A stretch of DNA of 64,000 nucleotides from Malacoraja senta (Eukaryota): the NCBI GenBank assembly GCA_038087875.1, contig CM075991.1:8062001-8126000 (forward strand), written 5' to 3'. The notes under the pieces were generated by a model, which saw only the letters and a program-made list of their open reading frames with translations, was not told where the DNA came from and made no database searches. A program made the translations under genes and the position numbers. Positions 4,423-60,534 of the stretch are shown in pieces; within the stretch, counting starts at the first letter, position 1, and each line of letters starts with the position of its first letter.

Positions 4423-6104
4423 ATCTATGCTATAATAGATCTTAGATCTAATCTATTAGATTAATATTTGGAGGAATGTGTAACAACCCCCCCACGCCAC
4501 CTTCCCCCCTAAGCAATTCACTGCTCTGTGCTTTATTGTGTGAATATTGGTTGCGTTTTGTACAGAACTCATAACATTGTGTAAATCCTTCTCTGCATAA
4601 TTAATGATTATGTTTTGACAAATTGTATTTTTGCAGTAATTAGGTAGCAGATGCTTCTTTGCAACTACATCCTGAGGAAGATATGGAGGCCATTGACAGT
4701 AACGCTAATTGTAATTTTATGCTAAGAGTCGATTTAACTTTCATGTTAAATTATCCCAGTTACTATGAATAACTGGACAATGAGATGAGTCGCTTTGAAC
4801 AGGAGTGCAAATTAGGACTTTGCAGAGAGATATGCTCCTTGCTTCCGACATGGTAACTGCTGGCGAGCTGGTTTTATCTCGTGCTCCATTCCAGGGTGAT
4901 GGGGACAGATTGATCTTTCTTGCTTTCGCTGACTGTGCATTCGATGTCACGGTCACTGCGAGAAAAGTTCCTCCTCCAAGAATTAGGTCGTGTCGACTTC
5001 AGTCGGACCAAATTACAGTGAGTGCAAGATGCAGTTGTAGAGTCAGAGAGTCAAAGGAATCGGCGTGGAGGGAGAAGGGGAGGAGGGGGAACAAAGGGGA
5101 ACCTTGCACAGGGGGTAATTTGTAACATTGTAAGCGCCCTTTATATAGCGACTATTTGAATACCTTGGGTGTGCAAGCAAAGAATTTCACTGTGACTTGT
5201 CACATGTGACAATAAAGTATTCAATTCAATACAGTGTGGAAACAGGCCCTTCGGCCCAACATGCCCACACCAGCCAACATGTCCCAATTCCACTAGTCTC
5301 ACCTGCCACTGTTTGGTCCATATGCCTCTAAAACTGTCCCATCCACAGTAAATGTTTCTTAAACCTTGTGATTGTACCTGCCTCAACTACCTCCTCCACT
5401 CTACTACCTCATATACTTTCCATCCAAAGTTGCCCCTCAAGTTCCTTTTAACTCATTTTGACCACCCTATATACCTATGACGCCATCTTTATCAGGATGC
5501 ATCACAGCATGGTTTGGGAACAGCTCCATCTAAGATCTCAAACAATTGCAGCAGATTGTGGACACAGCCCAGGCCATCACACAAGCTAACCTTCCTTCCA
5601 TTGACTCCATTTATCCGTTTAGTTTAGAGATACAGCGTGGAAACAGGCCCTTCGGCCCAACGAGTCCATGCCAACCATTGATCCCCCATACACTAGTTCT
5701 ACTGCATGTTATCCCAGTTTTGCATCTTACACATTAGGGGACAATTTACAGAAGCCAATTCACCTACAAATCTGCACGCCTTTGAAAACTGGGAGCGAAC
5801 CCTAGCACCAGGAGAAAACCCACATGGTCACAGGGAGAGAGTAAAAACTCCGCACTGACAGCACCCGTAGTCAGTATCTGTAAGGCAGCAACTCTCCAGA
5901 ATGTATTGTTATTTCCCACCCCAAAAAAAAACTGGGCATTGGTTCACTCCAGTCTGAAGAAGGGTCTCGACCCGAAATGTCACCCATTGCTCCCTGTCCC
6001 GCTGAGCTACTCCACCACTTTGTGTCTATCTTTGGTTCAGCCGGCATTGGCTGTTCCTTTCCATGCTCCATTCAACCGCTGTGCTTGCTTTCCTTCTCTC
6101 GTAG

Positions 6105-6248
6105 GGCTGAACGTGCAGGAGGTGCTGATCAATGTGTCTCGACAGCAAGTGGAAGATTTCCACGGCCCGGAAGACTACTGGTGCCTCTGCGTGGCCTGGA
6201 GTGAGCTGGGGACCACGAAGAGCAGGAAGGCCACCGTCCGCATTGCAT
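6105..6248 (+). CDS. UNC5D: UNC5D-like netrin receptor exon, C-terminal half of Ig domain 1 ([48 protein letters not shown])
   Basis: Pyrimidine tract plus AG at 6103-6104 and GTAAGC donor at 6249; 144 nt, phase 1/1. The peptide closely matches my recollection of vertebrate UNC5D ([31 protein letters not shown]). Confidence 0.93.
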
Positions 6249-6309
6249 GTAAGCAGAAGCTTGGCCGGCCTTCCGGCAGCAGTTGCTAATGCCCACCAGC
6301 ACCGCGCAC

Positions 6310-6820
6310 CAAAGATCCTATAGCAAGCAAGATGGTCCACTCAACGAAAAAGGCGTAGTACGGTCATGGGCAGATTCATGGGTCATTTTCGGCCCCATTT
6401 CCGTAACCGGCTTCCGTCTCCACACCAAAGATCCTAGAGCGAGCAAGATGGTCCACTCGACGAAAAAGACGTAGTACGGTCATGGGCAGATTCATGGGTA
6501 ATTTAAGGCCAGATTTCCATAACCGTCTCCCGTCTCCGCACCAAAGCTCCCATAGGATAATAGTGCGGAGACGGAAGCCAGTTACGGAAACATCCTCGTA
6601 AAAATAAAAGTTATTTGGTAAAAATCTTCTTCTCATTTTCAGAATTTTAATTTATTAACACAAACTGTTCCCCCGCGACGTTGATTACACTGCGAGTCGG
6701 GTCGGGTCAGGTTACTGAAATGGATGAAAAAAAGGCCCACGTTCCGCTCCGTTGCGTACTACACGTCAGCCCATTGCATTTAGCAGGAGTGGTCTATCTT
6801 GCACCGCTATAGGATCTTTT
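6310..6820. mobile_element. Non-autonomous TIR element with a probable 8-bp TSD (hAT- or P-like) and an internal 116-bp tandem repeat
   Basis: ~33-bp imperfect TIR CAAAGATCCTATAGC..GCAAGAT...CCACTC; flanks CCGCGCAC / CCACGCAC. Repeat units start at 6310, 6426 and 6542. Confidence 0.7.
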
Positions 6821-7194
6821 CCACGCACGCTCCTACAGAGATGAATTAGCTATCCTATTCTGCAGTCCTTACAGGCTTTGGCTGCTGTTGGGTAGGTAGT
6901 CCATCAAACTGGTTCCGCTTGAATAATTGGATCACCGTGTGAACTACAGAGCCTGGGCAACTTGCAAGTGCAGCATACTGAAGCTGTTGGCTACAGGCTC
7001 TAAATAATGCATGGACCACGTTTTTTTTATTTGGCAAGTTGCGGGTCTTGTGATGACTTGTGTTTCACAGAGAACACTAGCAAGAGATAAATGCCACCAT
7101 CGGCATGGTGGGAGATTTCTGTCTGCTCGTAGCCTTGCATGCTAAAGAGTCTTTCTCCAACACAGCTCTTTTTAAACCAGGGGGTGTGAAATAA

Positions 7195-7462
7195 ACATGG
7201 AAAATAGGTGCAGGAGTAGGCCATTCGGCCCTTCGAGCCAGCACCGCCATTCAATATGATCATGGCTGATCGTCCAAAATTAATACCCCGTTCCTGCTTT
7301 CTCCCCATATCCCCGATTCCGTTAGCCCCAAGAGCTAAATCTAACTCTCTCTTGAAAACATCCAGTGAATTGGTCTCCACTGCCTTCTGTGGCAGAGAAT
7401 TCCACAGATTCACAACTCTCTGGGTGAAAAAGATTTTCCTCATCTCAGTCCTAAATGGCCTA
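7195..7462 (-). mobile_element. CR1-type LINE 3' fragment
   Basis: Translates to FFTQRVVNLWNSLPQKAVE...FKRELD, the CR1 ORF2 C-terminus, followed by the 3' UTR. Confidence 0.85.
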
Positions 7463-8699
7463 TTCTCTTGAATAGTTGAATGTGGCAGGAACTGGGATCG
7501 GACTGGTTTAATGTTTATTTGTAAACTGCAAATTAAAACCGTCCACGTTCTACAGAGGGACGCTGATGTTTTTCAAGCCACTTTCAAGGAATATTTAGTC
7601 ATTCTCAGCAGCCCGCTGAGAAATAAATTCTCTGATTAGAACGTGTTCTATCCAATGCGCATTAAAGTGATTAAGCTTAGAATTAGATTCCGAGTAATGT
7701 TTATAACGTTGAATGAAGAGTTGTAGGCCCTCAGGATTGGAAAAGTCTTGAGATAAGCAAAGGAGGACTAAAGAAGCATCTCAACTCAAAACGTCACCCC
7801 ATTCCTTTTCTCCAGAGATGCCGCCTGTCCCGCTGAGTTACTCCAGCATTTTGTGTCCACCTTCCGTGTAAACTAGCACCTGCAGTTCCTTCCTACACAG
7901 TAGTTAAAGAGGCATGAAGTAGTGTTTGAGTGGATGTGGAGAGGATGGTTTCATCAATGGGAGATTCGGGGACCAGAGGGCAGAGTGTCAGAATAATAGG
8001 AAGTACCTTTAGAGAGGAGATGAGGAGGAATTTCTTTAGCAGGGAGAGTGTGCAAACTCCACATAAACAGCACCCCGAGGTCAGGATCAAACCTGGGTCT
8101 CGGGTGCTGTGAGGTAGTGACTCTACGAGATGCGCCACTGAGATGCCCCCTCCACCCTCTCAATATGGAGAAGCAAACAGCTCAATGGCGAAACTGTTCC
8201 GTACAATTTTTCATGCCAGGGTGGGAAGAGAGAAAGGAGACGGATCAGAGGCCAAAACATAGAGCTGCTGCCTCACAGCGCCCGAGCCCCGGGTTCGATC
8301 CTGACCTCGAGTGCTGCCTGTGTGGAGTTTGCACGTTCTCCCTGTCACCACCAGTTTCCTCCAACATCCCGAAGGTGTGCGGGGTTGTAGGTTAATTGGC
8401 TTCTGTAAATCGCCTCCGGTGTGAATGCGTAAGTGGGACAACGTAGAACTATTGCACGAGTGATCAATGGTCAACAGGGACTTGGAATATGGTGAGCAAT
8501 TGTGGGCACCATATCTGAGGAAGGATGTACCGGCTCTGGAGAGGATCCAGAGGAGGTTTACAAGCATGATCCCAGGAATGAGTGGGTTAACCTATGATGA
8601 GCGTTTGTCGGCACTGGGCCTGTACTCGCTGGAGTTTAGAAGAATGAGGGGGGACCTCATTGAAACATACAGAATAATGAAAGGCTTGGATAGATTGGA

Positions 8700-9419
8700 G
8701 GTACACAAAAATGCTGGAGAAACTCAGCGGGTGCAGCAGCATCTATGGAGCGAAGGAAATAGGTAACGTTTCGGGCCGAAACCCTTCTTCAGACTGATAG
8801 GGGGTGGGGAGAAGAAAGGAAAAAAGGAAAAGGCGGAGGAGGAGCCCGAGGGCTGGGGGAGGGGAGGAGACAACCAGATGGCTGATGAAGGGGAGGGGAC
8901 AGCCAGGGCTAGCAGAATTGGGAGAATTCAACGTTCAGGCCACCAGGATGTAGACTGCCCAAGCGGAATATGAGGTGCATTTCCTCCAATTTATGGTGTT
9001 GCTCGCTGTGGCCATGGAGGAGACCCAGGACAGAGAGGTCAGATACGGAATGGGAGGGGGAGTTGAAGTGCTGAGCCACCGGGAGTTCAGGTTGGTTATT
9101 GCGGACCGACCGGAGGTGTTCGGCGAAACGATCGCCAAGCCTCCGCTTGGTCTCACCGATGTAGATCAGCTGGCATCTAGAGCAGCGAATGCAATAGATG
9201 AGGTTGGAGGAGATGCAGGTGAACCTCTGTCGCACCTGGAACGACTGCTTGGGTCCTTGAATGGAGTGGAGGGGGGAAGTGAAGGGACAAGTGTTGCATC
9301 TCTTGCGGTTGCAAGGGAAAGTACCAGGGGAGGGGGTGGTATGGGAGGGAAGGGAAGAATTGACAAGGGAGTTACGGAGGGAGCGGTCTTTGCGGAAGGC
9401 AGACATAGGGGGAGATGGG
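8700..9419 (-). mobile_element. Penelope-like retroelement 3' part: GIY-YIG endonuclease ORF plus terminal repeat with a hammerhead-like motif
   Basis: ORF 8909-9436 reads PCNRKRCNTC...NLIYCIRCSRCQLIYIGETKRRLGDRFAEH...VAQHFN...GLN, the PLE GIY-YIG domain with its Cys motif. Downstream on the same strand is CTGAAGAAGGGTTTCGGCCCGAAACGTT. Confidence 0.9.
8765..8792 (-). ncRNA. Minimal hammerhead-ribozyme-like core in the Penelope terminal repeat
   Basis: CUGAAGA-A-GGGU(UUCG)GCCC-GAAAC-GUU, ~120 nt 3' of the GIY-YIG stop, in the sense orientation. Confidence 0.65.
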
Positions 9420-10232
9420 AGATTGGATGTGGACAAGATGTTTCCACTAGTGGGAGAGTCAAGGACTAGAGGTCATAGCCTCAGAATTAAAGGATGTCCT
9501 TTTAGGAAGGAGATGAGGAATTTCTTTGGTCAGAGGGTGGTGAATCTATGGAATTCTTTGCCGCAGAAGGCTGTGGAGGTCAAGTCAATGGATATTTTTA
9601 AGACAGATTCTTGATTAGTGCAGGTGTCAGAGGTTATGGGGAGAAGGCAGGAGAATGGGGTTGAGGGGGAGAGATAGATTGGCCATGATTGAATGGCGCA
9701 GTAGAATTGATGGGCCGAATGGCCTAATTCTACTCCTGTTCCATGTGACCTCATGGTGGGTCGAAAGGCATGTTTCCACATGTCTCTAAACTAAACTAAA
9801 ATTAGTAGGCCTGAAATCAATGGAAGGAAAAACCTGAAGGAAAAACATCAACTGAATGAAAGAATTATTTATCATTATTCATATGAAAGTATGGTGATCA
9901 CATTCACATCATATCCATGCTTTTATGTATGAAAGGGAAGTTTGTGGATGCATTGAATTGGTGATAGGGGGAGCCACTGGATTTGTTTCCGAATCTCTGC
10001 TGAAGAAAGTCTTGTGGGATTGGGAGTAATGAATTAGTATGGATAGAGGAATGTCACAAAGGGCAGAGGTCAGGAATAATTGGATCGTTTTCAGGATGGT
10101 TCTCTGTTACTAATGGGGTTATGCAAGGATCAGTGCCAAAGCCTCAGCTATTTACAATTTATATTAATGACTTTGATAATAGGTTTCAACATACGTTATC
10201 TAGGTTTGACGATGATACAAAGCTCGGTGGGA

Positions 10233-10649
10233 ATAGAAACATAGAAAATAGGTGCAGGAGTAGGCCATTCGGCCCCTCGAGCCTGCACCGCCATTCAATA
10301 TGATCATGGCTGATCATCCAACTCAGTATCCCGTACCTGCCTTCTCTCCATACCCCCCTGATCCCTTTAGCCACAAGGGCCACATCTAACTCCCTCTTAA
10401 ATATAGCCAATGAACTGGCCTCAACTACCTTCTGTGGCAGAGAGTTCCAGAGATTCACCACTCTCTGTGTGAAAAATGTTTTTCTCATCTCGGTCCTAAA
10501 AGACTTCCCCCTTATCCTTAAACTGTGACCCCTTGTTCTGGACTTCCCCAACATCGGGAATAATCTTCCTGCATCTAGCCTGTCCAACCCCTTAAGAATT
10601 TTGTAAGTTTCTATAAGATCCCCCCTCAATCTTCTAAATTCTAGCGAGT
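10233..10649 (-). mobile_element. CR1-type LINE 3' fragment, young subfamily
   Basis: ORF 10186-10629 (RGDLIETYKILKGLDRLDAGRLFPMLGKSRTRGH...); nearly identical to 33290-33710 and 46563-46937. Confidence 0.9.
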
Positions 10650-10734
10650 TATCAATGCAAGCTATCTATAGGACGCGGCGAGATTTTATTTTTAATTGAC
10701 TTGTTTTTGTTTGGGAAGTGAATGACGCTGCCAA

Positions 10735-11320
10735 GGCTATAACGCCCCTACTTCCTTCGAAGGCCGAGGAGTTCCGGCATGTCCCCAGCAACTCTCACCA
10801 ACTTCTACAGATGCGCCGTAGATGGCATTTTATCGGGTGGCGTCACGGCATGCTTTGGGAACAGCTCCATCCAAGACCGTAGGGAATTGTGGACGCAGCC
10901 CAGACCATCAGGCAAACCAATCTCCCTTCTATTGACTCCATTTATACCTCACGCTGCCTCGGCAAGGCCAGCAGCATAATCAAGAGCAAGTCCCACCCCG
11001 GCCATTCCCCCTTCTCCCTCAGACCTCGAGATTCTAGCGAAAACGCACACCACCAGATTCAGGGACAGTTGTTATCAGGCAACTGAACCATCCTACCAAC
11101 AACTAGAGAGCGGTCCTGAGCTACTGTCTACCTCATTGGAGACCCACAGACCCTCAGACTATCATTGATCATTGATTTGCACTAAACATTATTCACATTC
11201 CCTTTATTATGTTTTTGTACACCGTGGACGGCTCGATTGTAATCACGTATTGTCTTTCTGCTGACTGGTTAGCACGCAACAAAAGCTTTTCACTGCACCT
11301 CGGGTACACGTGACAATAAA
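10735..11320 (+). mobile_element. Rex1/Babar-like LINE 3' fragment
   Basis: LTNFYRCAV.GILSG.VTA.FGNSS motif of the Rex1-type C-terminus, then a 3' UTR ending in GTGACAATAAA. Confidence 0.7.
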
Positions 11321-11433
11321 ACAATCATTTTATTGGCCACCCCAAATAGCCCGTGAGAAGGTGTTGGTGAGCTTAAACCACTTCCACTAGTTGGTCTACT
11401 TGAACTACTGATGTTCTTTTGATGTAGAACCGG

Positions 11434-11715
11434 TTGCTCAACATTTTAACTCCTCCCCCCCCCCCCCCCCCCCCCCATTCCCACATTGACCCTTCTGTCC
11501 TGGGCCTCCTCCATTGTCAGAGTGAGGCCCAGCGCAAATTGGAGGAACAGCACCTCATATTTCGCTGGGGTAGCTTACACCCGAGCGGTATGAACATTGA
11601 CTTCGCTAACTTCAAGTCGCCCTTGCTTTCCCTCTCTCTCCATCCTCTCCCCCTACTGGTCTTACTGTCTCCCATCCTTTTTCACCAGAGACGCTGCCTG
11701 ACGCGTTGAGTTACG
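11434..11715 (+). mobile_element. Penelope-like GIY-YIG 3' fragment
   Basis: SVLGLLHCQSEAQRKLEEQHLIFRWGSLHPSGMNIDF, homologous to the 8909-9436 ORF. Confidence 0.8.
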
Positions 11716-12539
11716 TGCGCACTCTGTGCCCACCCTGCCTGATCTCTTTACATAACGGAAGTCCTCCAGTCCCGATAACATCCTGGTGAATTTCCTCTGC
11801 ACTCTGGTTAATGCCTCGAACAATGCTGCCTGGTGCTGGAAGCTGAAAGAATTCCCACATTTAAGAGGCATTTAGATAGACACCTAAATATGCAAGGCTT
11901 AGTATAGATTAGAGATACAGCGCGGAAACAGGCCCTTCGGCCCACCAAGTCCGTACCGACCAGCGATCCCTGCACAATAACACTACCCTACACGCACTAG
12001 GGACAATTTACACTTATACCGAGCCAATTAACCTACAAGCCTGTACGTCTTTGGAGTGTGGGAGGAGACCAAAGATCTTAGAGAAAACCCACAAGGTCAC
12101 GGGGGAGAACGTACAAACTCCGTACAGACAGCACCCGTGGTCGGGATCGAACCCGGGTCTACGGCGGTGTAAGCGCTGTATGGCAGCAACTCTACCGCTG
12201 AGCCACCATGCCGCCCAAACCCTAACCCTAACCCTTTTGTGGACGGGGTGATTGCTGGTCAGCACAGACTCGGTGGGCTGAGGGGCCTGTTTCCACGCTG
12301 TATCTCTACAATCTACAAGCAATGTCACAAGTGTGCGCGAAGGAACTGCAGGTGCTGGTTTATACCGAAGCTGGACTCGAAAAGCTGGAGCAACTCAGCG
12401 GGTCAGGCGGCATCTCTGGACAAAAGGAATGGGTGACGTTTCAGGTTTGGAACCCTTCTAAAGTCTAAACTGTCGGACTGAGGGAGATTGAATCTGCATT
12501 GCCACTGTTGTCTTGCTGATCCCGCAATCAGATTACAGT

Positions 12540-12666
12540 CTGAAGAAGGGTTTCGGCCCGAAACGTTGCCTATTTCCTTCGCTCCATAGATGCTGCTGCA
12601 CCCGCTGAGTTTCTCCAGCTTTTTTGTGTACCTTCGATTTTCCAGCATCTGCAGTTCCTTCTTTAA
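12540..12666 (+). mobile_element. Short Penelope-derived insertion beginning at a hammerhead-like core, with a 15-bp TSD
   Basis: CAATCAGATTACAGT at 12525-12539 and 12667-12681; the insert starts CTGAAGAAGGGTTTCGGCCCGAAACGTT. Confidence 0.85.
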
Positions 12667-13720
12667 CAATCAGATTACAGTTCCTGGTCTGCTGAGTGAG
12701 AAAGGAGAAAAGAATAATGTTGGGAGAAGGGAGGTGTGGGGGAAAGGTAATGGTTGCATGTTAATTGACATCAATTTTGCCTCTAAGGTGGAAGTTATGA
12801 CTACTTACAGCTGATGTATCACTTTTACTTACAGATCTCTTTATTCTTACGATGCAACGGCAAGAACTTTCTGCCAGGCTTTAACTCTCTGTTGAGAAAG
12901 TTGTCACCTCATTACTTGCAGTGAAGCTTAAAGTCCAATTCACCATTTCTAGCCAATCTCAATGGGCAGTCTAAAGAAGGGTCTCCACCCGAAACGTCAC
13001 CCATTCCTTCTCTCCAGAGATGCTGCCTGTCCCGCTGAGTTCCCCCAACATTTTGTGTCTCTCTTCAGTGGCCAGACCTTTTGGTTTATCCATTCGGTTC
13101 AGAACTAAAGGAACTGCCATACATACGCTGGTTTACAAAAGAGGACACAAGGTGTTCATACTCAGCGGGTCAGGCAACATCTCTGGAGAATGTGGACGTT
13201 TTAAGTCGGGACCCATTTGGTTCATCCTGCCTGGCTCTGCTGCTTGAAAGAATTCCCCCTCTGTGTGTTGAATTCTCCAATTTTAGGCAATAGTTTCTGC
13301 TTTCATTTCATATCCGAGCAATTTTTATAAAATGTATCACTTTCAGGAGAGAAATTTTGGAAGCACGTTCACTCTCAGAGTGTGTGAGAAATTTGGAACT
13401 CGCATCTGCAAGTGGCAAGCCAACTCTTAACTTCACATCTGAGATTGCTAGATTTTGAATGCGGGGAGATCGGGCAAAGGTGGGTCTGTGGACTTTGATC
13501 AATTTATCAGCCATGATGCAGTTGAATGATGACACAGGCTCGAAGGGCTGAATCATCTCCGCAGATCCCACCCCACGCCAGATGGACGCATTGATCTGAA
13601 AGATCACTCAGTCCGCAGGCAATGCCACGGTGGGACTGAAAGCTGGAATGAAAGTCAAGTCAAACTGAGTTTGTGAGTTAACTGATCAATTGGTTTCTCC
13701 TCCTCCATCCACCCCCACAG

Positions 13721-13824
13721 ATCTGAGAAAAAACTTTGAACAAGATCCGCAGGCAAAGGAGGTTCCTCTTGAAGGGAAGATAATCCTGCATTGTCGTCCG
13801 CCTGAGGGAGTTCCCTCAGCCAAG
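13721..13824 (+). CDS. UNC5D: UNC5D-like exon, start of Ig domain 2 ([35 protein letters not shown])
   Basis: CCCACAG acceptor and GTAAGA donor; 104 nt, phase 1/0, in frame with the previous exon. Carries the UNC5 signature LRKNFEQ.P...CRPPEGVP. Not in the ORF track. Confidence 0.93.
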
Positions 13825-15345: not shown

Positions 15346-15671
15346 TGGCCCTGTCCCACGGTACGAGTTCATTCCAAGAGCTCTCCCGAGTTTGCCCTGA
15401 TTCGAACTCGGAGATTTACGGTAACGGCCGCTTGTCGGTACTCGGGGCTCTCGTGGACATTTTTCAAAATGTTGAAAAATCTTCACGAGTCTTCCCGACC
15501 TTACCTGCCATTAGCGAGTCTTCCCGAGTACCTGCCGTTAGCGTTACGAGCCGCTAAGAGACATCCCCGAGCTCCGACGTACCCTCTATGTTCATTCTCC
15601 GTGCTTACCACGAGTTTTTTTTTAAACTCGGGAGAGCTCTTGGAATGAACTCGTACCGTGGGACAGGGCCA
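15346..15671. mobile_element. PIF/Harbinger-type MITE, type C
   Basis: ~40-bp inverted ends TGGCCCTGTCCCACGGTACGAGTTCATTCCAAGAGCTCTCCCGAG; TAA on both sides. Confidence 0.85.
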
Positions 15672-23401: not shown

Positions 23402-23429
23402 GTTGGTGTGCTGCACAGTTTAATATTAA

Positions 23430-45612: not shown

Positions 45613-45697
45613 GAGTCCGTTTAATGGTCCCTCTGGGATCAATTCCGGGAGGGAATTCCTGGGAAATGCACATTGCAGTCAATCACGGTGAAACTAG
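45613..45697 (+). CDS. UNC5D: UNC5D-like ZU5 exon (GVRLMVPLGSIPGGNSWEMHIAVNHGETS)
   Basis: T-rich tract then AAAG acceptor and AG|GTAAGC donor; 85 nt, phase 1/2, which fits both neighbours. Resembles [29 protein letters not shown]. Not in the ORF track. Confidence 0.88.
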
Positions 45698-51211: not shown

Positions 51212-51396
51212 GTTCAAGGAGAAACTGCAGATGCTGGAGAATCGAAGGTAGACAAAATTGCTGGAGAAACTCAGCGGGTGCGCCAGCATCTATGGAGCGA
51301 AGGAAATAGGCAACGTTTCGGGCCGAAATGTTGCCTATTTCCTTCGCTCCATAGATGCTGCCGCACCCGCTGAGTTTCTCCAGCAATTTTGTCTAC
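51212..51396. mobile_element. Fold-back Penelope-derived insertion with a 16-bp TSD
   Basis: CTGTGATCGTAAACTT (51196-51211) / CTGTGATCGGAAACTT (51397-51412); inverted arms of ~73 bp. Confidence 0.85.
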
Positions 51397-51914
51397 CTGT
51401 GATCGGAAACTTCACGGGTGTCGGGGGTTATGGGGAGAAGGCAGGAGAATGGGGTTAGGAGGAAGAGATAGAACAGCCACGATTGAATGGCGGAGTAGAC
51501 TTGATGCGCCGAATGGCCTAATTCTGCTCCTATCACTTATGACCTTATGATTTTATGAACTGTCTCTCTGTGGAGAGAAATGGGCGTGATGTTTTGGGCT
51601 GGGACCCTTCCTCAGACGATGGAGTAGGGGGAGAAATCTGTTAGACAGAGGCAGGAGTGGGGCAATCGTGGCAGGTGATAGGTGGATACAGGTGTGGAGA
51701 GGTGGGGTGCAGAATGGTGTAGATGGTGACAACGGAAACCAAACAGTGCAAGGCAGGAAGGAAGAGGAGGAATGAAGAAGAGCTGGCCCGTGTGGGTTTC
51801 CTCCGGGTACTCCAGCTTCCTCCCACATCCCAAAGACGTGAGTGATTGGAATTAATTGGCCTTCTGTAAATAGCCCCCAAATGTGTAAGGTGTGGATAGA
51901 AAATGGGATGATAT

Positions 51915-52760
51915 AGATTTAGATTTAGATTTAGATATTTATTTGTTGTCGTTTGAACCTAAGTTCAAACGAAATTCTGTTTCTGCAGTCATACAAACAA
52001 TTAAAAAAGACACAACACAATTTACACAAACATCCATCACAGTGAATCTCCTCCTCACTGTGATGGAAGGCAAAGTCTTATCTCTCCCCTGCACTCCATT
52101 CTCCTCCCGATGTCAGAGTCAAAGCCCCCGGCGGGCGACTGTAAACATATCCCACGGCCACCAAAGCCGCGCCGGGCGATGCCAGACCCCGCTCCGGGTC
52201 TTGATGTTGCAGCCCCCGGTAGCGCCAGCAAGTCTCACGGCCACCAATGCCGCACCGGGCGATGTCAGACCCCGCTCCAGGTCATCTTCAACCCCGCAAC
52301 TCGGGCGGGAGTAGCTGCCGTTGCGGGAGCTCCGAAAAGCGGTCTCCCACCATGGACCCGCGGGCCCCCGATGTTACCGTCCACCAGTCCCGCGGCTGAA
52401 GACTCCGAATCTCCGGGGTCGGGTCGCAGCCGCGCGCCACCACAGCCCCTCCCGCTCCGAAGTCGGCCAGCTCCACGATGGTGAGAAGTCCACAGGCTCC
52501 GCGACTGGAGCCCCAGGTCGTTCCGGTTGGAGGCCGCTCCACGGTGCTAGGCCCCAACGACAACGGAGACCCGACAGAGAAAGGTCGGTTCTCCCGTGCA
52601 GGGAAAAGATTTTAAAAGTTTCCCCCTCCATACCCCACCCCCCGCCCCCCACACATACCCAGTTAAAAAAACACTAAAAACAAAACTCAAACGAAACAAA
52701 AAAAATAAAAAAGACAGACGGACTGCAGAGGCCGCTGCAACCAAGTCGCGCCGCCCACTT
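51915..52760 (-). mobile_element. GC-rich non-autonomous retroposon-like element with a (TCTAAA)n tail
   Basis: Shares TTGCCTTCCATCACAGTGAGGA and the T-rich/G-run 5' architecture with 31157-31930. Confidence 0.6.
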
Positions 52761-52985
52761 AACACCACTACTGTTAACGGGTGATCACTGGTCGGCGTGG
52801 ACTCGGAGGGCTGAAGGGCCCATTTGTATGCCGCATATCTAAACCAAATTAAAATAAACTAAACTGACTCTATGACTCTAACATATACTTGGGAGTGGGA
52901 AAGCCCTTATTTAACTCATGTGGTGTGGCCACGGAGTCTCTGTGTTTCTGTGGCATGGTGGCGCAGTGGTAGAGTTGCTGCCTAA

Positions 52986-53184
52986 AGGGCCTGACCCACT
53001 TGGGCGTCATTTGCGCATCACGCAGATGGCGAGCGAAGATTTTGTACGTCCCAAAATCCTGGGGCGCCGCGCGCGAGACCGCGTGTCACTGCCTAGGTCA
53101 CCACGTACCACGCACCTTGTGTTGTGACGCGTAAATGATGTCGCGTAAATGACGTGCAAATGACGCCCAAGTGGGACAGGCCCT
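52986..53184. mobile_element. PIF/Harbinger-type MITE, type E, inserted in a V-SINE
   Basis: GTTGCTGCC-TAA-[AGGGCCTG...CAGGCCCT]-TTA-CAGCGCCAGAG. Confidence 0.85.
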
Positions 53185-54262
53185 TTACAGCGCCAGAGAT
53201 CCGGGTTCCATCCTGACCACGGGTGCTGTCTGTATGGAGTTTGTACGCTCTCCCTGCCCGGAACCATGTGGGTTTTCTCCAGGAGCTCCGGTTTCCTCCC
53301 AACTCCAAAGACGTGCAGGTTTGGAGGTTAATTGGCTTCGGTAAAATTGTAAATTGGTCCTAGTGTGTGTAGGATAGTGCTGGTGTACGGGGTGATCGGA
53401 GCAGACTTGGTGGGCCGAGGGGCCTGTTTCCGCCCTGTATGTCTCAGGTCTGAATTTCCCGTTTGCAAGCAGTTGAAAAATAATGAAATAAGCTGAATTG
53501 ATTTAAACATCTTGCAAAGTAGTTGCCACACAAAGCCAACAGCAACGGTACATGATAGCTGCTGAATCAGATGGCGATGGCTTTATCAAGTGCCTCACTG
53601 TCCAAGGCAACGCTGGCTTCTAAAGATAGACGGTTCCTCTGGTCGGCCTCATTGGTGTCGCAGCTCCACGGGAAGTTAGCCGACCACAGGGGGACACGTT
53701 TTCCACCGCTGATTCAGAGCGGGCTCGTCCTATTTGCATTTGCAAGAACATCCCTCTGTCTTGCTGCGAACGATGACGTCCCCTGGGCAGCGGGCATGGC
53801 ATGATGTGTTCAGCTTTGTAGGCAGATGGTCGAGCTCGAGGCCAAACCCTTGAATTGAGACATCATCAGGAATAAGTGCTTCATTATATGTCCCGGGAGA
53901 ATTTAATCAATGCCTTTTTTGAAAGTTTAAAAAAACCACAGCAATGTTCCAGCAGCGTATTACACATGTACTGACACAAGTCAATTAAGACAAAATGGAT
54001 GTGTGAAAGTTAACTGTTGATGCAAATTTGTGTTAATTTTTAATCAGTGCAATTGAGTCTGAGGTGTTTATGCTTAATGGGATATTAGTACCACTAAACA
54101 AGCCTTCACAGAAATTCACAAAAAGCTGGAGTCACTCAGCGGGACAGGCATTATCTCTGGAGAGAAGGAATGGGTGATGTTTCGGATCGAGACCCTTCTT
54201 CGGACTGATCTGCCTGCAGTTTGCTGCACTTCACAGCACAGCTGCTCAACTTCAGAATGATT

Positions 54263-54597
54263 AAGAAAGAACTGCAGATGCTGGAAAAATTGAAGGTAGA
54301 CAAAAATGCTGGAGAAACTCAGCGGGTGAGGCAGCATCTATGGAGCGAAGGAATGGGCGACGTTTCGGGTTGAGACCCAAAAATGCTGGAGAAACTCAGC
54401 GGGTGAGGCAGCATCTATGGAGCGAAGGAATGGGCAACGTTTCGGGTCGAGACCCTAAAAAATGCTGGAGAAACTCAGCGGGTGAGGCAGCATCTATGGA
54501 GCGAAGGAATGGGTGACGTTTCGGGTCCGAAACGTCACCCATTCCTTCGCTCCATAGATGCTGCCACACCCGCTGAGTTTCTCCAGCATTTTTGTCT
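54263..54597. mobile_element. Penelope-derived insertion: three tandem ~77-bp units plus one inverted unit, with a 15-bp TSD
   Basis: AACTTCAGAATGATT at 54248-54262 and 54598-54612. Confidence 0.85.
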
Positions 54598-55010
54598 AAC
54601 TTCAGAATGATTGATCATATGAGGTACCTCTGGGAACCCTATTAAGATCGTCTATAAAACCTACCTATCTTTCATCTGTAGATTCCTGGCTTCTTGAACA
54701 TGCTTAGCTGTGAGATTTACTGGAGAAAGCCCGAGGGATTGGGTAGCAAGGATAAGGAAGTGGCACAGCATTTTTCTAACTATTTCCCTGCGCTGTGCAT
54801 CTATCCTTCTCTCCGCACACTCTCTGTGTGAGAACGTTTTAATAATTCTAAATTATCAATTGAGAAAGTAAAAGAAATATATAGACATTTATCACACAGT
54901 TGAGCCCTCTGAACAAGGTTAGTGCAATGAATTTGTTCGACAATTGGCTTTTATTTGGTGTGTTGGTTTATTGAAAACCGAGAGGCAAAATCAATGATTA
55001 TTGTAGACTG

Positions 55011-55229
55011 AAATGCTGGGGAAACTCAGCGGGTGAGGCAGCATCTATGGAGCGAAGGAAAACAAGAAGTTTCGGGTCGAGACCCTTCTTCAGACTCGAC
55101 TGGAAAGAAGGGTCTCGACCCGAAACGTTACCTTTTCCTTCGCTCCATAGATGCTGCCCCACCCGCTGAGTTTCCCCAGCATTTTTGTCTACCGTCGATT
55201 TTTCCAGCATCTGCAGTTCCTTCCTAAAC
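55011..55229. mobile_element. Fold-back Penelope-derived insertion with a 14-bp TSD and two divergently oriented hammerhead-like remnants
   Basis: ATTATTGTAGACTG at 54997-55010 and 55230-55243. Confidence 0.85.
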
Positions 55230-55398
55230 ATTATTGTAGACTGTGTATCTTTACAGACATCTTAGCGGTGGATCAATTGCTAACACTATTGCCTCTTTTT
55301 CTAGATCAAAAATATTTATTCAAATAGTATTTACAATACAATAAAACAAAACAAGCCACCACCATAATACAAGACAAACAAATATACTAAGTAAACTG

Positions 55399-55523
55399 TT
55401 AAAGAAGGAACTGCAGATGCTGGAAAATCAAAGGTACACAAAAATGCTGGAGAAACTCAGCGGGTGCAGCAGCATCTATCGAGCGAAGGAAACAGGCAAC
55501 GTTTCGGGCCGAAACCCTTCTTC
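55399..55523 (-). mobile_element. Short Penelope-derived insertion with a 15-bp TSD, inside a Tx1-like tail
   Basis: ATACTAAGTAAACTG at 55384-55398 and 55524-55538; 5'-truncated within the hammerhead core. Confidence 0.85.
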
Positions 55524-55754
55524 ATACTAAGTAAACTGCTAGACAACTATGTTGCAGGTCTTGTCCAGGATGCATTTAACCCCACTTGGTGCCCAGCGGT
55601 TTCATAAATCCCCCAGGGTGCCCGTGGACAGCTGGTAGTCTCTCTCTAGTACCACCTGGATGCGGACGTAACCCCAGTAAAGGGGCAGGCAGCCCTCTTC
55701 TGCCTGGCGCCGTGACTCGTGGATGGCCAGCTTGGCCAGGCCCACAATTGCCTC

Positions 55755-56385
55755 TTTTTTTTCAAAAAATGTATTCAATTATTAAAAAAATAATATTACA
55801 CTACAATAAAACAAGGCAGAACCCAGCACCATAATACAACACAAACAAATATCCTTAATACACTACTATACAGCTATGTTACACTCCTTGTCATGGATGC
55901 ATTCAACACCCTGCGGAGCCCAGCGGTCCCGGAACTCCCTCAGGGTGCCCATGGACAGGGCATATTCCCTTTCTAACCCCACCCCGGGAAAGGGGCAGGC
56001 AGCCGGCTCGGGTACAGCCCTCCACCGCTTGGTGCCGTGACCCGCAGATGGCCAGCTTGGCCAGGCCCAGGAGCAACCCAACCAGGACATCTTCAGCCCC
56101 TACCCTCTCCCCTACGCACAGGCTGTCCAAAGATGAGAATGGTGGGTGAAAAGAGCAGCCAGAAGGCAAGGAGCAGCCCCTTTAGGTATTGGAACAGGGG
56201 CTGCAGCCTCATGCACTCCATATACACGTGGTACACAGACTCGTCCAGCCCGCAAACGTGGCAGGCGGCTGGCGAGTCTGTGAACCGTGAGAGAAACAGG
56301 TTGCAGGGAACTCCACGGTGCAATACCCTCCACCCCAGGTCCCCAATGTAGAGGGGGGAGAATCCCTGCGTAGAACTATTGTCTC
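55755..56385 (-). mobile_element. Tx1/L1-like LINE ORF2 C-terminal zinc-finger fragment; a second partial copy lies at ~55300-55742
   Basis: DLGWRVLH...CHVCGLDESVYHVYMECMRL...FSPTILIFG, a CX2C-X7-H-X4-C knuckle. Confidence 0.78.
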
Positions 56386-57659
56386 TGTTGGAAGGCAGCG
56401 AAGTCAAGTACTGCTCCTAAGCAATGAAAGGGCGGCACAGTGTCACAGCCACTGCCTCACAGCACCAGAGACCCTGGTTCAATCCTTACTTTGGCTGCTG
56501 TCAGCCTCGCGTTCTTTCACACACCAAAGAATGCCAACACACAGTGGTAACATCCAAGGTCAGGATCAAACCTAGGTTTCGGTAGCTGTGAGGCAGCATC
56601 ACTAAATCGCCACACCATTGTGTTTTGGGCAAAGTTTATGCTTAAGACATCGCTAAGACATGTAAAATATAAGTGCTGGAGTAACCCAGTGCTGGAGTAA
56701 CCCAGTGGGTCAGGCAGCATCTCTGCACAAATAGGATGGGTGACATTTTTAGGGTCCGGACCCAGTTACTCCAGCACTTTGGGTTTATCTTTGGTATAAT
56801 CCAGGATCTGCAGTTCTATGTTTCTATTAAAAAATATAATATGGTTAATAACATATGGTTGTGTCGGGGAACTTGCTGTGTATTAATCGGTTGGATTATT
56901 CCCTGCATTACAGCAATAATTGTCATATAGTGTGGAAACAGGCCCTTCGGCCCAACTTGCCCATACCAACCAACCTGTCCCATCTACATTAAGTTCATAA
57001 GTTGTTGGGTTGCAGAATTAGGCCATTCCACCCATCAAGTCTACTCCGCCATTCAATCATGGCTAATCTATCTCTCCCTCTCAATCCCATTCTCCTGCCC
57101 TCTCCCCATAACCCCCAACGCCCGTACTAATCAAGAATCTATCAATCTCCATTGACTTGGCCTCCACAGCCTTCTGTGGCAAGACTCTCTCCAGACCCAC
57201 CTGCCTGTGTTTGGCCCATATCCCTCCAAACCTGTCCTATCCATGAATGTTTCGTAAACCTTGTGATAGTACCTGCAATGACCTTGAAGATTTTTGCACT
57301 AATCCTTGGGATGTTCTCCAGAAGGCAGAGGAGGCCAATTCACTGGATGTATTCAAGAGAGAGTTGGATATAGCTCTTAGGGCTAACGGAATCAAGGGAT
57401 ATGGGGAGAAAGCAGGAACGGGGTGCTGATTTAAGATGATCAGCCATGATCATGTTGAATGGCGGTGCTGGCTCGAAGGGCCGAATGGCCTACTCCTGCA
57501 CCTATTTTTATGTTTCTTTGTTCTGATTTTGAAAAGAGCTTCGGAAATTCAAAACCGGAGCATCAGTGACAGTCAAACATGATCCATTTATCAACGTGTC
57601 CACCATGCTCAGCCATCCCTCACAGAACAGCAATTTAACAGATAGCTCGCTCTTTATTG

Positions 57660-57840
57660 AACATAAAACATCCTTCGAAGTTTGCGACCAACCCTGACCT
57701 TCTCAACGGCTGAAGTAAAAAGTGCAGCGTTACTCGGGCCAGGTGTTTGTCCGCGTGTCCACGGGAGGGGGGGGGGGATTGAACTCACGACCTTCCAGCT
57801 CAGCGAGGGGAGTGCTACCCACAGAGCCACAGCTGACACC
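57660..57840 (-). mobile_element. Degenerate tRNA-derived SINE head, possibly DeuSINE (SacSINE1-like)
   Basis: The reverse strand reads GGTGTCAGCTGTGGCTCTGTGGGTAGCACTC...GAAGGTCGTGAGTTCAAT, with A- and B-box-like motifs. Confidence 0.45.
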
Positions 57841-58175
57841 ACTGCAGGGGCACGTAATGTCCTTGACATCATGCACAGTCGTTTTCTGCAGCACACCACA
57901 AACAACAGCGTGGGACCATTTGGTTAAGCTCACACTGCTGTTGTTCAGCTGCCCACAGCAGCAGAGCCAGAGTATTTAGTCGACGTCTATGACTGTCCGC
58001 AGTGATAATTGTTCCGAGCTCCATCAACCTTCAAGCTCACAGAAAACCTCATGATTTTTAAACCGCAGCTCTTAATGTCTGTGTACTGAAGTGAACTTTT
58101 CTAACACCTTCAGGGAGTCCAGTTATCACCATACGTACCGCGATTGGAAAGAATCGTTTGGTGGCTGGAACACAG

Positions 58176-58595
58176 TAGAGTCTTTATTCTTTGGAGCGCA
58201 GAAGGTTAAGGGGGGACTTGATAGAGGTCTTTAAAATTATGAGAGGGATAGACAGAGTTGACGTGGATAAGCTTTTTCCATCGAGAGTAGGGAAGATTCA
58301 AATAAGAGGACATGATTTGAGAATTAAGGGACAAAAGTTTCGGGGTAACAAGAGGGGGAACTTCTTTACTCAGAGAGTGGTAGCTGTGTGGAATGAGCTT
58401 CCAGTGGAAGTGGTGGAGGCAGGTTCGATTTTATCATTTAAAAATAAATTGGATAGGTATATGGACGGGAAAGGAATGGAGGGTTATGGTCTGAGTGCAG
58501 GTAGATGGGACTAGGTGAGAGTAAGTGTTCGGCACGGACTAGAAGGGCCGAGAGGGCCTGTTTCCGTGCTGTAATTGTTATATGGTTATATGGTT
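58176..58595 (+). mobile_element. CR1-type LINE 3' fragment, second subfamily with a (TATATGGT) tail
   Basis: ORF 58191-58514 ERRRLRGDLIEVFKIMRG...FFTQRVVAVWNELP; reverse copy near 29478-29690. Confidence 0.9.
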
Positions 58596-58689
58596 AATAG
58601 GACTTGATGTTTCAATCTCTGTAACAAGTTGGCACTCTTGCTATTTGCAGTGGGATTGGAGCGGTGAAAGGTCGGGTAGGTACGTCATC

Positions 58690-59020
58690 GGGGTCATCAG
58701 GTGGGCACCCTCCTTCTTTGATGTTTCATTGATAAGCCCACAACATCTCCAGAGGGCTCAACGGTGATACCTGGCGTCCCAGTTGCACCCCGCTCAATTC
58801 CATACCCTCCTGTCTTCATCTTGCAGCCCAATTGTTGTCTCTCCTTTTGATCCAAATCCAATTGCTGCTTTTTTTCCGCAGAATTTGATAATGGCTTGAT
58901 TGCTTGTTGGAGGGAGCGACCCCTCAGCCCCATTTTCTTTAATAGCCTGGTCATAGATGTAGCAACAAATCCCCTGCATCTCACTTCGACAGGGAAAATC
59001 TTGGTCTTCCAGCCATTCTG
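58690..59020 (-). mobile_element. HERO/R2-group non-LTR element 3' fragment (restriction-like endonuclease C-terminus)
   Basis: The reverse strand gives GWKTKIFPVEVRCRGFVATS..RLLKKMG, then after a frameshift WIWIKRR. Confidence 0.6.
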
Positions 59021-59337
59021 GGAAGCTTTGTAGTAATCCTATCCTTTCATGCACAATGCTAATCGCACCTCAACAACAGAACACTACTGTCAAGAGCCAA
59101 GAGACAAAGAATGTTTTATCGTCAATACGTCCCGAAACAGAACAATTAAATTCTTACTTGTAGCAGCACGACAGATATGTATACATAAGATAGACACAAA
59201 ATGCTGGAGTACCTCAGCAGGACAGGCAGCATCTCTGGAGAGATGCTGCCTATCCCATATATACACACACACACACACACACATAAAAACAAACAATAAA
59301 AGTACAAAAGGCAAAACTAATGTCCCCCAAGACTATG

Positions 59338-59531
59338 GTAGACAAAAATGCTGGAGAAACTCAGCGGGTGAGGCAGCATCTGTGGAGCGAAGGAAATAGG
59401 CCGAAACAAGGGACTTGGCCCGAATCGTTGCCTATTTCCTTAGCTCCATAGATGCTGCTGCACCCGCTGAGTTTCTCCAGCATTTCTGTCTACCTTCGAT
59501 TTTCCAGCATCTGCAGTTCCTTCTTAAACAT
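59338..59531. mobile_element. Fold-back Penelope-derived insertion with a 15-bp TSD
   Basis: TCCCCCAAGACTATG at 59323-59337 and 59532-59546. Confidence 0.85.
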
Positions 59532-59960
59532 TCCCCCAAGACTATGTAGTTCAGAGCTTATTTGGAGGTTGTAATGTAGAGGTTGCAGTTTAAAGGTTGT
59601 ACTGTAGGGAAGAAGCTGTTCCTGAACCAGGACGTTACAGTTTTCAGGCACCTGTACCTTGTTACCGATGGCAGAAGTGAAATGAGAGTGTGGCCAGGGT
59701 GGTGTGGGACTCTGATGATGCTGGCTGCCTCCTGGAGTCAGCGACGACTGTAGGTCTCCTTGATGGTGGGGAGGTCAGTACCCCATGATGAAATGGGCCT
59801 TGTTCACCATTTTATGTAGTCTTCTCAACTCCTGGGCATAATATTACACCTACACTGTTTGTATGCACGATCCCAGCTCTTCTAGATAACAGATTGACTT
59901 TAAGAAATTAATGCATTAGTTACTCAGTTCTCTCTCTCTCTCTCTCTCTTCTTTTTATAG

Positions 59961-60129
59961 CCTGCAACCAGAGGGAGGTGAGATACTCCTGAGTCCAGAG
60001 GTCACCTGTGGACCACCAGGTTTATCCTTGTCCACCCCAGTTGCTCTGACAGTCCCTCACTGTGCCATGGTGTGCCCGGAACACTGGAGCATTAAGCTTA
60101 AGAGGCAGGTCCTGACTGGAAAATGGGAG
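59961..60129 (+). CDS. UNC5D: UNC5D-like ZU5 exon ([56 protein letters not shown])
   Basis: (TC)n tract plus TAG acceptor and GAG|GTGAGT donor; 169 nt, phase 2/0. Contains the ZU5 motif [11 protein letters not shown]...PHCA...W. Confidence 0.94.
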
Positions 60130-60328
60130 GTGAGTTTGGTGATTTGCAGATTCCTTGCAACGGCCGTGTTGAAGTACGTCCCAGATAGAACAATGAAATC
60201 TTGCTTGCAGCAGCACTACACAATATGTAAAACATAGTGCACTGTGAACAATATAATAAATAAATAAGCAAAAAATGGTTCAGTGTGTGTATATATACAT
60301 ATACACATATATACACATGTATACAAAG

Positions 60329-60534
60329 TGTTTAAGAAGGAGCTGCAGATGCTGGAAAATCGAAGGTACACAAAAATGCTGGAGAAACTCAGCGGGTGCA
60401 GCAGCATCTATGGAGCGAAGGAAATAGGCAACGTTTCAGGTCTGAAGAAGGGTTTCGGCCCGAAACGTTGCCTATTTCCTTCGCTCCATAGATGCTGCTG
60501 CACCCGCTGAGTTTCTCCAGCATTTTTGTGTACC
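60329..60534. mobile_element. Fold-back Penelope-derived insertion with an intact hammerhead-like core (60442-60469) at the turn
   Basis: ~72-bp perfect inverted arms; TACACATGTATACA on both sides (60312-60325 and 60535-60548), although this lies in a microsatellite. Confidence 0.8.

What the first reader, a model, noticed from the sequence alone, without database searches (positions are those of the whole stretch)
5954..60469. Swarm of minimal hammerhead-ribozyme-like motifs carried by Penelope terminal repeats
Seen: dozens of ~100-130 bp repeats contain all or part of CTGAAGA-A-GGGT(YTCG)RCCC-GAAAC-GTH. Intact examples are 8765-8792(-), 12540-12567(+), 19599-19626(+), 29319-29346(+), 41154-41181(-) and 60442-60469(+). 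In three places the motif lies just 3' of a GIY-YIG ORF remnant in the sense orientation. Two subfamilies differ in ways that keep stem II paired (U-A with a CUCG loop versus U-G with a UUCG loop) and keep an NUH triplet (GUC versus GUU). Known: the hammerhead core is CUGANGA/GAAA/NUH, and Penelope-like elements carry minimal type I hammerheads whose loopless palindromic stem III (ACGU here) is thought to work as a dimer. An extra base after A9 occurs in some natural hammerheads. Inference: this lineage has a very high-copy ribozyme-bearing PLE, and sense copies are transcribed inside the UNC5D pre-mRNA. Caveat: I see only ~2 bp of stem I, so activity is uncertain.
Basis: partly seen in the sequence, partly recalled or inferred. 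Interest (0 to 1): 0.8.

Follow-up and report, generated by a model that had tools for sequence, protein, structure and literature searches.

The report
Ribozyme-bearing stubs of a Penelope retroelement
These short repeats are truncated end-pieces of a Penelope-like jumping gene, each carrying all or part of an already described minimal hammerhead ribozyme motif that is predicted to cut RNA only weakly; the kind is ordinary, but about half of the young copies begin at one sharp point just before the ribozyme, likely the start of the element's RNA, which would explain why such stubs swarm in this genome.

Summary
All six motifs are present; 62 repeat copies lie in the window, only 7 with a complete motif; 41,995 exact motifs occur genome-wide, none in the control. 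They belong to the pseudo-LTR of a young Neptune-type Penelope-like element (RT plus GIY-YIG, 3.9-kb tandem unit) in what is likely a cartilaginous fish. The motif is the minimal type I hammerhead described in 2014: a distant relative keeps the core at the same place, with compensatory changes in stems I and II, and matches the published Acropora Neptune motif. This scan noted the same kind in two other genomes. Added here: 36 of 73 non-inverted young copies begin within 14 nt around the CUGA, right beside their target duplication; only 1 begins at the cut site. Likely the RNA starts at a TCAGT initiator just before the ribozyme, and reverse transcription, begun internally about 95 or 130 nt downstream on uncut RNA, runs off that end. 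Dispersed copies decay neutrally, show no strand bias in the UNC5-family gene and are predicted to misfold, so an effect on that pre-mRNA is unsupported. Cleavage and start site are untested.

The parts
8699..9420 (-). 5'-truncated young Neptune-type PLE copy (ORF end, spacer, hammerhead, 3' end at the first stop site), 8-bp target duplication, inserted in a LINE fragment
   Evidence: 99.9% identical over 722 nt to the full unit in L003; duplication at 8692-8699 and 9420-9427
8909..9420 (-). C-terminal 170 aa of the ORF: Cys linker and GIY-YIG endonuclease
   Evidence: Pfam GIY-YIG E 1.7e-4, just under the cut-off; 98.8% to the long ORF; the 150 scored genome matches are 94-100% identical
8793..8797 (-). 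TCAGT initiator-like motif, inferred transcription start, also the 5' strand of stem I
   Evidence: YCAGT kept in 35 of 38 ORF-linked copies whose spacers vary from 99 to 232 nt; 5' ends pile up here
8765..8792 (-). intact minimal hammerhead motif, young subfamily (UUCG loop, GUU); predicted cut 3' of 8765
12364..12637 (.). head-to-head pair; intact motif at 12540-12567 (+)
19597..19698 (+). solo stub, intact motif at 19599-19626 (CUUG loop)
20781..21281 (-). older 5'-truncated PLE copy: GIY-YIG remnant, spacer, motif with CpG decay in stem III
   Evidence: 78% aa to the long ORF
29315..29417 (+). solo stub, intact motif at 29319-29346
40497..40739 (-). young-subfamily copy with ORF end and damaged motif
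41084..41186 (-). stub with pyrimidine spacer, intact motif at 41154-41181 (CUCG loop, GUC)
51242..51402 (.). head-to-head pair joined inside the ribozyme's own palindrome; CUGA lost from both
54289..54607 (.). three direct stubs lacking CUGA plus a head-to-head partner
60359..60541 (.). head-to-head pair; intact motif at 60442-60469 (+), next to a TA/CA microsatellite
1022..61378 (.). whole swarm: 62 copies (28 +, 34 -), 14 head-to-head pairs, 7 complete motifs
23216..23401 (+). host exon, transmembrane segment of an UNC5-type receptor (assignment recalled)
   Evidence: AG/GT borders; translation; no tool match
59961..60129 (+). host exon, ZU5 domain of an UNC5-family receptor
   Evidence: Pfam ZU5 over cut-off; UNC5B 3g5b E 4.5e-13; AG/GT borders

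Best explanation
The repeats are 5'-truncated insertions of a Neptune-type Penelope-like retroelement whose pseudo-LTR carries a minimal type I hammerhead motif, and the 95-135-nt stubs are likely made when the element's reverse transcriptase starts inside the uncut RNA and runs off its 5' end, which is inferred to lie 2-5 nt before the CUGA. Shown: the motif sits about 110 nt after the RT-GIY-YIG stop codon and is repeated at both ends of 3.9-kb tandem units; insertions end at +92-96 or +124-134 (counting C3 of CUGA as 0), carry 10-21-nt target duplications, and begin in a sharp cluster at -6..+7, not at the cut site (+28). Inferred: TCAGT is the initiator; the two 3' sites are internal priming sites as in the anole element PAc; priming in the 3' pseudo-LTR of a long transcript gives the long copies, priming in the 5' one gives the stubs; priming from both nicked target strands, with the two cDNAs joined through the motif's palindromes, gives the head-to-head pairs. 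The ribozyme most likely works only in the autonomous element's RNA, as a slow, protein-assisted dimer (ACGU on ACGU) that trims tandem or read-through transcripts after or apart from reverse transcription. The dispersed copies are fossils.
For: Architecture: tandem units with two motifs 3,891 and 3,875 nt apart in L003 and L014; RT and GIY-YIG in one frame of up to 1,222 aa; C-x4-C-x2-C linker and DKG motif. Ribozyme: 24 of 59 testable distant relatives (about 50% aa) pass the descriptor about 97 nt after the ORF end, 0 antisense, 0 reversed; core unchanged, free position 7 changed, stem I pair G-C to C-G, stem II pair U-A/U-G to C-G, flanks unlike; that form matches the published Acropora Neptune motif. 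5' edge: 47 of 100 young copies, and 36 of 73 non-inverted ones, start at -6..+7 (2.6 per nt against 0.07 upstream and 0.16 downstream); 1 of 73 at +26..+30; genome-wide 7,314 of 18,573 copies that reach -2 also match to -11. No shared upstream exon in 167 flanks. YCAGT in 35 of 38 ORF-linked copies; TATA-like box at -37..-41 in 37 of 49 copies of the distant relative. 3' ends: 63 of 100 at +92-96, 29 at +124-134; bimodal in the distant relative too (22 and 19 of 53). Published support: internal priming at two sites, extension of both strands, protein-assisted hammerhead not needed for insertion (PMC11167929). Neutral decay.
Against: Covariation rests on two lineages only (77 of the 80 relative loci come from one assembly), and the pair counts lean on relatedness. 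The active fold is predicted to be rare in naked RNA (stem II probability at most 0.02 once 45 nt are included). A cap-derived G is not clearly seen: at -3 there are 1,531 G against 1,944 C or T, and several G cases are template jumps. The 5' cluster is 14 nt wide, and part of the 61% genome-wide drop is point mutation. The 100 copies all come from the first 10.3 Mb of one contig and were chosen by an exact tail starting at +44. The spacer also looks like a splice acceptor. No tree with named Neptune references was built.
Confidence: 0.6

Rival explanations
1. The stubs are a non-autonomous, SINE-like offshoot: solo copies keep the initiator and both priming sites, are transcribed on their own and are copied in trans by the element's protein.
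For: Stubs hold everything from TCAGT to both 3' sites; they outnumber long copies about two to one (67 of 100 start at -6 or later); pseudo-LTRs suffice for mobilisation in trans in rotifers (PMC3846280); animal retrozymes are argued to derive from pseudo-LTRs (bioRxiv 10.64898/2026.07.22.740005).
Against: Stubs match the long copies of their own subfamily and show no stub-only diagnostic changes in the clusters seen; 5' junctions are all different and no upstream flank is shared; no array of complete motifs in the window.
Confidence: 0.2
2. The 5' edge is not the RNA start but a splice acceptor or a reverse-transcriptase roadblock: the pyrimidine spacer ending in CAG is an intron end, as in Drosophila Penelope, or a protein-bound block.
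For: Pyrimidine tract plus CAG directly before the motif; in D. virilis the intron ends at helix I (PMC4209133).
Against: No spliced copy with a first exon among 167 flanks; target duplications abut the edge; the young subfamily has no donor-like GT at its ORF end; the distant relative has no AG there but has a TATA-like box at the right distance; the predicted hairpin would stop an RT near +45, not -3.
Confidence: 0.15
3. In this lineage the motif no longer cuts; it is kept as a pairing or protein-binding signal that holds two template RNAs together for the dimeric enzyme.
For: Active fold disfavoured; the young subfamily has a 15-nt palindrome over stem II and GAAAC where 7 of 27 inverted pairs join; no copies start at the cut site; PAc core mutants still insert; minimal motifs cut poorly in vitro.
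Against: Every catalytic base, the extra base after A9 and a cleavable NUH are kept between lineages about 50% apart in protein, and only position 7 changes; PAc's motif does cut when protein is added.
Confidence: 0.2
4. The dispersed sense copies are active ribozymes that cut or regulate the host UNC5 pre-mRNA.
For: Four intact motifs lie in sense inside the gene.
Against: No strand bias (28 versus 34); partners for a dimer are 7-31 kb away or on the other strand; core positions in 179 older copies are changed as often as flanks (6.6% versus median 7%) and G12 in 31% through CpG decay; monomers of such motifs do not cut in vitro.
Confidence: 0.05

Closest known systems
Minimal hammerheads (min-HHR) in pseudo-LTRs of metazoan Penelope-like elements, nearest the Acropora digitifera Neptune motif (Cervera and De la Pena 2014, PMC4209133)
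   Same: CUGANGA, extra base after A9, G10.1-C11.1, GAAA, loopless palindromic CG, UH; 4-bp stem II with a 4-nt loop; one motif per pseudo-LTR; mostly single, dispersed, truncated copies
   Different: Stem I of 2 bp rather than 3; no cartilaginous fish in the paper's table or alignment; 41,995 exact motifs against about 9,000 in Xenopus and 4,000 in coelacanth
Neptune clade of endonuclease-bearing Penelope-like elements (features as given in PMC8557442)
   Same: RT then GIY-YIG, Cys-rich linker, DKG motif, partial tandems, inverted 5'-truncated partners, optional 30-40-bp tail (37 nt here)
   Different: Long Pro-rich repetitive stretch in the N-terminal part; clade placement not tested by a tree
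PAc, Poseidon element of the green anole (Frangieh et al. 2024, PMC11167929)
   Same: Two 3' end sites downstream of the hammerhead; no sign of cut RNA as template
   Different: In PAc the ORF starts in stem II and the priming sites lie in the ORF; here the likely start codon is at +163, beyond both sites. The passages read do not describe a 5' pile-up or a start site
Animal non-LTR retrozymes (bioRxiv 10.64898/2026.07.22.740005)
   Same: Short non-coding, hammerhead-bearing, pseudo-LTR-derived repeats; reported in one chondrichthyan genome
   Different: Defined there as tandem arrays with a complete motif in consecutive units; the window's copies are solo or head-to-head with target duplications

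Membership tests
min-HHR (type I) of PLEs | Core CUGANGA, GAAA and UH | tested here: met
   7 of 62 window copies; 41,995 exact genome copies
min-HHR (type I) of PLEs | Extra base between 9 and 10.1; G10.1-C11.1 pair | tested here: met
min-HHR (type I) of PLEs | Palindromic 15.2-16.2 without loop 3 | tested here: met
   ACGU in all 7 complete window copies and 23 of 24 passing relatives
min-HHR (type I) of PLEs | Short stem I closing the core | tested here: met
   2 bp (U-A or U-G, G-C); G-C to C-G in the distant relative; 2-bp cases in the published alignment
min-HHR (type I) of PLEs | Compensatory change across families | tested here: inconclusive
   Score 0.311 against 0.202 shuffled, 5 of 500, slid controls at most 0.121, but only two lineages in 10 rows
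min-HHR (type I) of PLEs | Present in both pseudo-LTRs of a full element | tested here: met
   L003 and L014
min-HHR (type I) of PLEs | Self-cleavage as a dimer or with protein | not testable with these tools
   Folding predicts competing hairpins; no raw RNA reads
Rfam hammerhead families | Match to a curated model | tested here: not met
   No hammerhead family among 36 matches at E up to 5
Neptune-type Penelope-like element | One ORF with RT followed by GIY-YIG | tested here: met
   Both Pfam families in 2 of 2 long ORFs, each a little under the curated cut-off
Neptune-type Penelope-like element | CX2-5CxxC linker between RT and EN; DKG motif | tested here: met
   features from PMC8557442. 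The linker is shared with Nematis
Neptune-type Penelope-like element | Partial tandems, inverted 5'-truncated partner, 30-40-bp tail | tested here: met
   L003, L014, L098; 27 of 100 inverted; ends at +92-96 and +124-134
Neptune-type Penelope-like element | Placement in the Neptune clade on an RT tree | not tested
   No named references held; indirect: relatives at about 50% aa carry the motif published for an Acropora Neptune
Non-LTR retrozyme | Tandem array with a complete hammerhead in consecutive units | tested here: not met
   Window only: 4 direct neighbours, none with two complete motifs; the rest of the genome was not searched for arrays

The most novel reading that the evidence does not exclude
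In Neptune elements from corals to cartilaginous fishes the hammerhead sits at the very 5' end of the transcript, a few bases behind the cap, and internal priming on uncut sense RNA turns that first 95-135 nt into a stereotyped, ribozyme-bearing stub: this would explain the genome-wide masses of single minimal hammerheads seen in animals, would favour a sense template over the proposed antisense one, and would make cleavage a decapping switch for the element's mRNA rather than a step needed for insertion.
Probability: 0.5. Interest if true: 0.5.

Novelty: new member of a known kind. Interest (0 to 1): 0.3.

Why it matters
The ribozyme and the element are known kinds, so the catch itself is a new host lineage and a record-size family (41,995 exact motifs; very roughly a million degenerate copies by extrapolation from 540 kb). 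What could matter is mechanistic: the role of the hammerhead in Penelope-like elements and the strand used as template are open questions (PMC8557442, PMC3846280). Twenty thousand near-identical young insertions give a natural record of where reverse transcription starts and stops; it points to uncut sense RNA starting just before the ribozyme, which one 5'-end mapping experiment can test.

Tried and rejected
Rfam: no hammerhead match; only microRNA-like hits over the head-to-head pairs, all under their gathering scores. Cut RNA as template: rejected, 1 of 73 non-inverted copies starts at +26..+30. Spliced template: rejected, no shared first exon in 167 flanks. Cap-derived G: looked enriched locally (10 of 16) but only mildly genome-wide (1,531 G, 1,944 C or T) and partly due to template jumps; not counted as support. 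Position-7 variants: 5,904 matches against 301 control, nearly all point mutants of the main family in the 100 listed, no separate family established. Subfamily conservation test inside the genome: uninformative, subfamilies too close. RNA data: no RNA holder listed; contigs of relatives show the repeat but cannot give starts, strand or cuts. Upstream ATG at +50: frame differs between subfamilies, not taken as coding. Protein Atlas, Pfam and PDB gave no name for the transmembrane exon. One pairing-probability row for the relative was off by one base and was redone. Lunse et al. 2017 (dimer cleavage) is not held; only its title was seen. Supplement file 1 of PMC4209133 could not be searched and the preprint's supplements are closed; either may list shark or ray motifs.
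Full report
Observation. A profile from eight window copies finds 62 copies of the 100-130-nt repeat, none in the reversed window. A strict descriptor (CUGANGA, 0-2 extra bases, stem of at least 4 pairs, GAAA, palindromic stem III, H) passes 7 of the 62; over 894 kb of window and fetched loci it gives 93 hits against 1 in the reversed control. In the window's own genome (1.94 Gb) the 28-nt motif occurs exactly 41,995 times, control 0. Outside the central kilobase of 60 fetched 10-kb stretches there are 311 copies in 540 kb; scaled up this is about a million, a rough figure from one region chosen beside young copies. Rfam has no hammerhead match here.

What carries it. The copy at 8699-9420 (-) holds the last 170 codons of an ORF with a GIY-YIG match and an 8-bp target duplication. 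The 150 best-scored genome matches to that protein are 94-100% identical, with open frames up to 1,222 aa. I fetched 20 of them. Both long ORFs tested have RT followed by GIY-YIG, with DKG, YxDD and a C-x4-C-x2-C linker, the linker that PMC8557442 gives for Neptune and Nematis (passages). L003 and L014 are partial tandems with a motif at each end of a 3,891- or 3,875-nt unit; the likely start codon is 163 nt after C3. Twenty-five ORF ends have a median identity of about 98%, so the subfamily is young. The best named protein relatives are from sharks and rays (64-67%), so the host is likely a cartilaginous fish.

Is the motif a ribozyme by descent? Inside the genome the test is weak. Among 292 full-length copies the larger subfamilies share the core, but also much of the flank, and U-A versus U-G is a one-sided change. 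A distant family settles more. Of 80 metagenome loci at about 50% protein identity (77 from one assembly), 59 had enough sequence downstream; 24 pass the descriptor about 97 nt after the ORF end, none on the other strand or reversed, and most of the rest hold a damaged copy. Against the window family, every core base, the extra A and the ACGU palindrome are kept; position 7 changes from A to C; the outer stem II pair becomes C-G; the loop differs; stem I's second pair goes from G-C to C-G. On a 10-row alignment the covariation score is 0.311 against 0.202 shuffled (5 of 500) and at most 0.121 when slid, but this is two lineages. That distant form is the motif printed for the Acropora digitifera Neptune element in Fig. 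S3 of PMC4209133. That paper (main text parts 1-2 of 4; supplement file 2 parts 1-2 of 3) defines these minimal hammerheads, reports them in fish Neptune, Poseidon and Xena elements, counts about 9,000 in Xenopus, finds no cleavage of a monomer and low cleavage of dimers, and lists no cartilaginous fish in what I could read.

How the stubs arise. I took 100 young copies found in loci fetched around the first 100 of 19,756 exact matches to a 48-nt tail (all in the first 10.3 Mb of contig C1; copies cut 3' of +44 cannot appear). With C3 as 0, 3' ends fall at +92-96 (63) and +124-134 (29): the optional tail of these elements. The distant family is also bimodal, 22 of 53 at +92-109 and 19 at +143-167. 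PMC11167929 (parts 1-2 of 4; passages) showed for the anole element PAc that such ends are internal priming sites, that both target strands are cut and extended, that the hammerhead cuts only with protein, and that uncut RNA is the main template. The 5' ends are the new part: 47 of 100 start at -6..+7, 33 further upstream, 20 at +8..+44. Leaving out the 27 with an inverted partner, 36 of 73 start at -6..+7 (2.6 per nt), 4 at -60..-7 (0.07), 6 at +8..+44 (0.16), and 1 at the cut site. Target duplications of 10-21 nt were found for 36 of the 73. Genome-wide, 7,314 of 18,573 copies reaching -2 also match to -11; mutation accounts for part of that drop. Several junctions carry a short re-copied piece of the motif's first bases, as expected if the enzyme reached a template end and jumped (inference).

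Why the edge is likely the RNA start. It is not a splice junction in the inserted copies: 167 flanks share no first exon, only inverted partners or spacer (60 of the loci used were selected for a non-A at -3). YCAGT is kept in 35 of 38 ORF-linked copies while the spacer varies from 99 to 232 nt; it fits the initiator consensus (recalled), and an initiator-like TCACT with a TATA box was noted in rotifer pseudo-LTRs (PMC3846280, passages). The distant family has a TATA-like box at -37..-41 in 37 of 49 copies, which by the usual 30-nt spacing (recalled) puts its start near -7. By eye about 13 of the 56 rows of the published Fig. S3 have UCAGU, UCAUU or UUAGU just upstream of the core (no control, a lead only). 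In Drosophila Penelope, by contrast, the start lies 46 nt before an intron that ends at helix I (PMC2377424, passages). Against: a cap-derived G is not clearly seen and no RNA start could be observed.

Head-to-head pairs. Fourteen pairs hold 28 of the 62 window copies; 7 of the 27 young inverted copies join in a 15-nt palindrome spanning stem II and GAAAC. Inverted partners with palindromic junctions are known. The two motifs of a pair are on opposite strands and cannot form a double hammerhead in one transcript.

Activity. Shown only by homology. Predicted folds of the window copies pair the purine-rich core and stem II arm with the pyrimidines after the cut site; stem II probability is at most 0.02 with 45 nt, in line with a protein-assisted ribozyme (inference). 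In 179 older copies non-CpG core positions differ in 6.6% against a flank median of 7%, and G12, in a CpG, in 31%: no selection after insertion. An UNC5-family gene runs on the + strand, copies are 28 + and 34 -, and the four intact sense motifs are 7-31 kb apart, so cutting of the host pre-mRNA is unlikely.

Novelty. The motif class, the element class and the insertion structures are published. A 2026 preprint (10.64898/2026.07.22.740005, parts 1-3 of 5; supplements closed) reports pseudo-LTR-derived retrozymes in one chondrichthyan. A review (PMC6765202, passages) summarises the dimer model. Five answered paper searches showed no description of this family or of a 5' pile-up at the hammerhead; subscription papers, Repbase and Dfam were not searchable, so absence from print is not established. 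Two earlier notes of this scan on other genomes reach the same classification. Verdict: new member of a known kind; interest 0.3, carried mostly by the testable start-site and run-off model.

Noticed in passing
L003:1720-1732 (unit positions about +158..+169): A donor-like AAG/GTATGC overlaps the likely start codon, and an ATG at +50 opens a 41-codon frame that overlaps it; the frame is not kept in the older subfamily. A spliced or regulatory upstream frame is possible.
   Followed up: partly
L003:1620-1695; L141:2165-2200: Both lineages have a TTTTGTG run ending about 93-95 nt after C3 at the first 3' end site, preceded by a predicted hairpin (7 perfect pairs in the distant family): a candidate priming signal.
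   Followed up: partly
L001:4005-7673: Long Pro/Thr-rich stretch with tandem 25-aa repeats between the N-terminal motif and the RT; length differs between copies.
   Followed up: no
protein hits P0001-P0120: After sharks and rays, the closest proteins (50-55%) are mostly unnamed marine assemblies, a coral and snails, as close as or closer than the one ray-finned fish listed; patchy spread or horizontal transfer is possible, untested.
   Followed up: no
window, e.g. 4129-4410, 11909-12174, 25532-25818: A second abundant repeat in both orientations (families D8, D11, D13-16, D19, D20), resembling the tRNA-derived HE1 SINE of sharks and rays (name recalled).
   Followed up: no
window 8464-8766, 10186-10665, 33384-34589, 46654-46989, 58179-58514 (-): LINE reverse-transcriptase 3' fragments, CR1-like (name recalled); one is interrupted by the young PLE copy, another by a head-to-head stub pair at 34471-34582.
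   Followed up: no
window 55903-56416 (-) and 21581-22141: Related remnants of another LINE with a Cys-rich C-terminal motif.
   Followed up: no
window 21785-21984: Assembly gap of 200 N.
   Followed up: no
L098:4515-5700: Tandem of internally deleted young elements with a 961-nt spacing between motifs: a possible short non-autonomous derivative with two hammerheads in one transcript.
   Followed up: no
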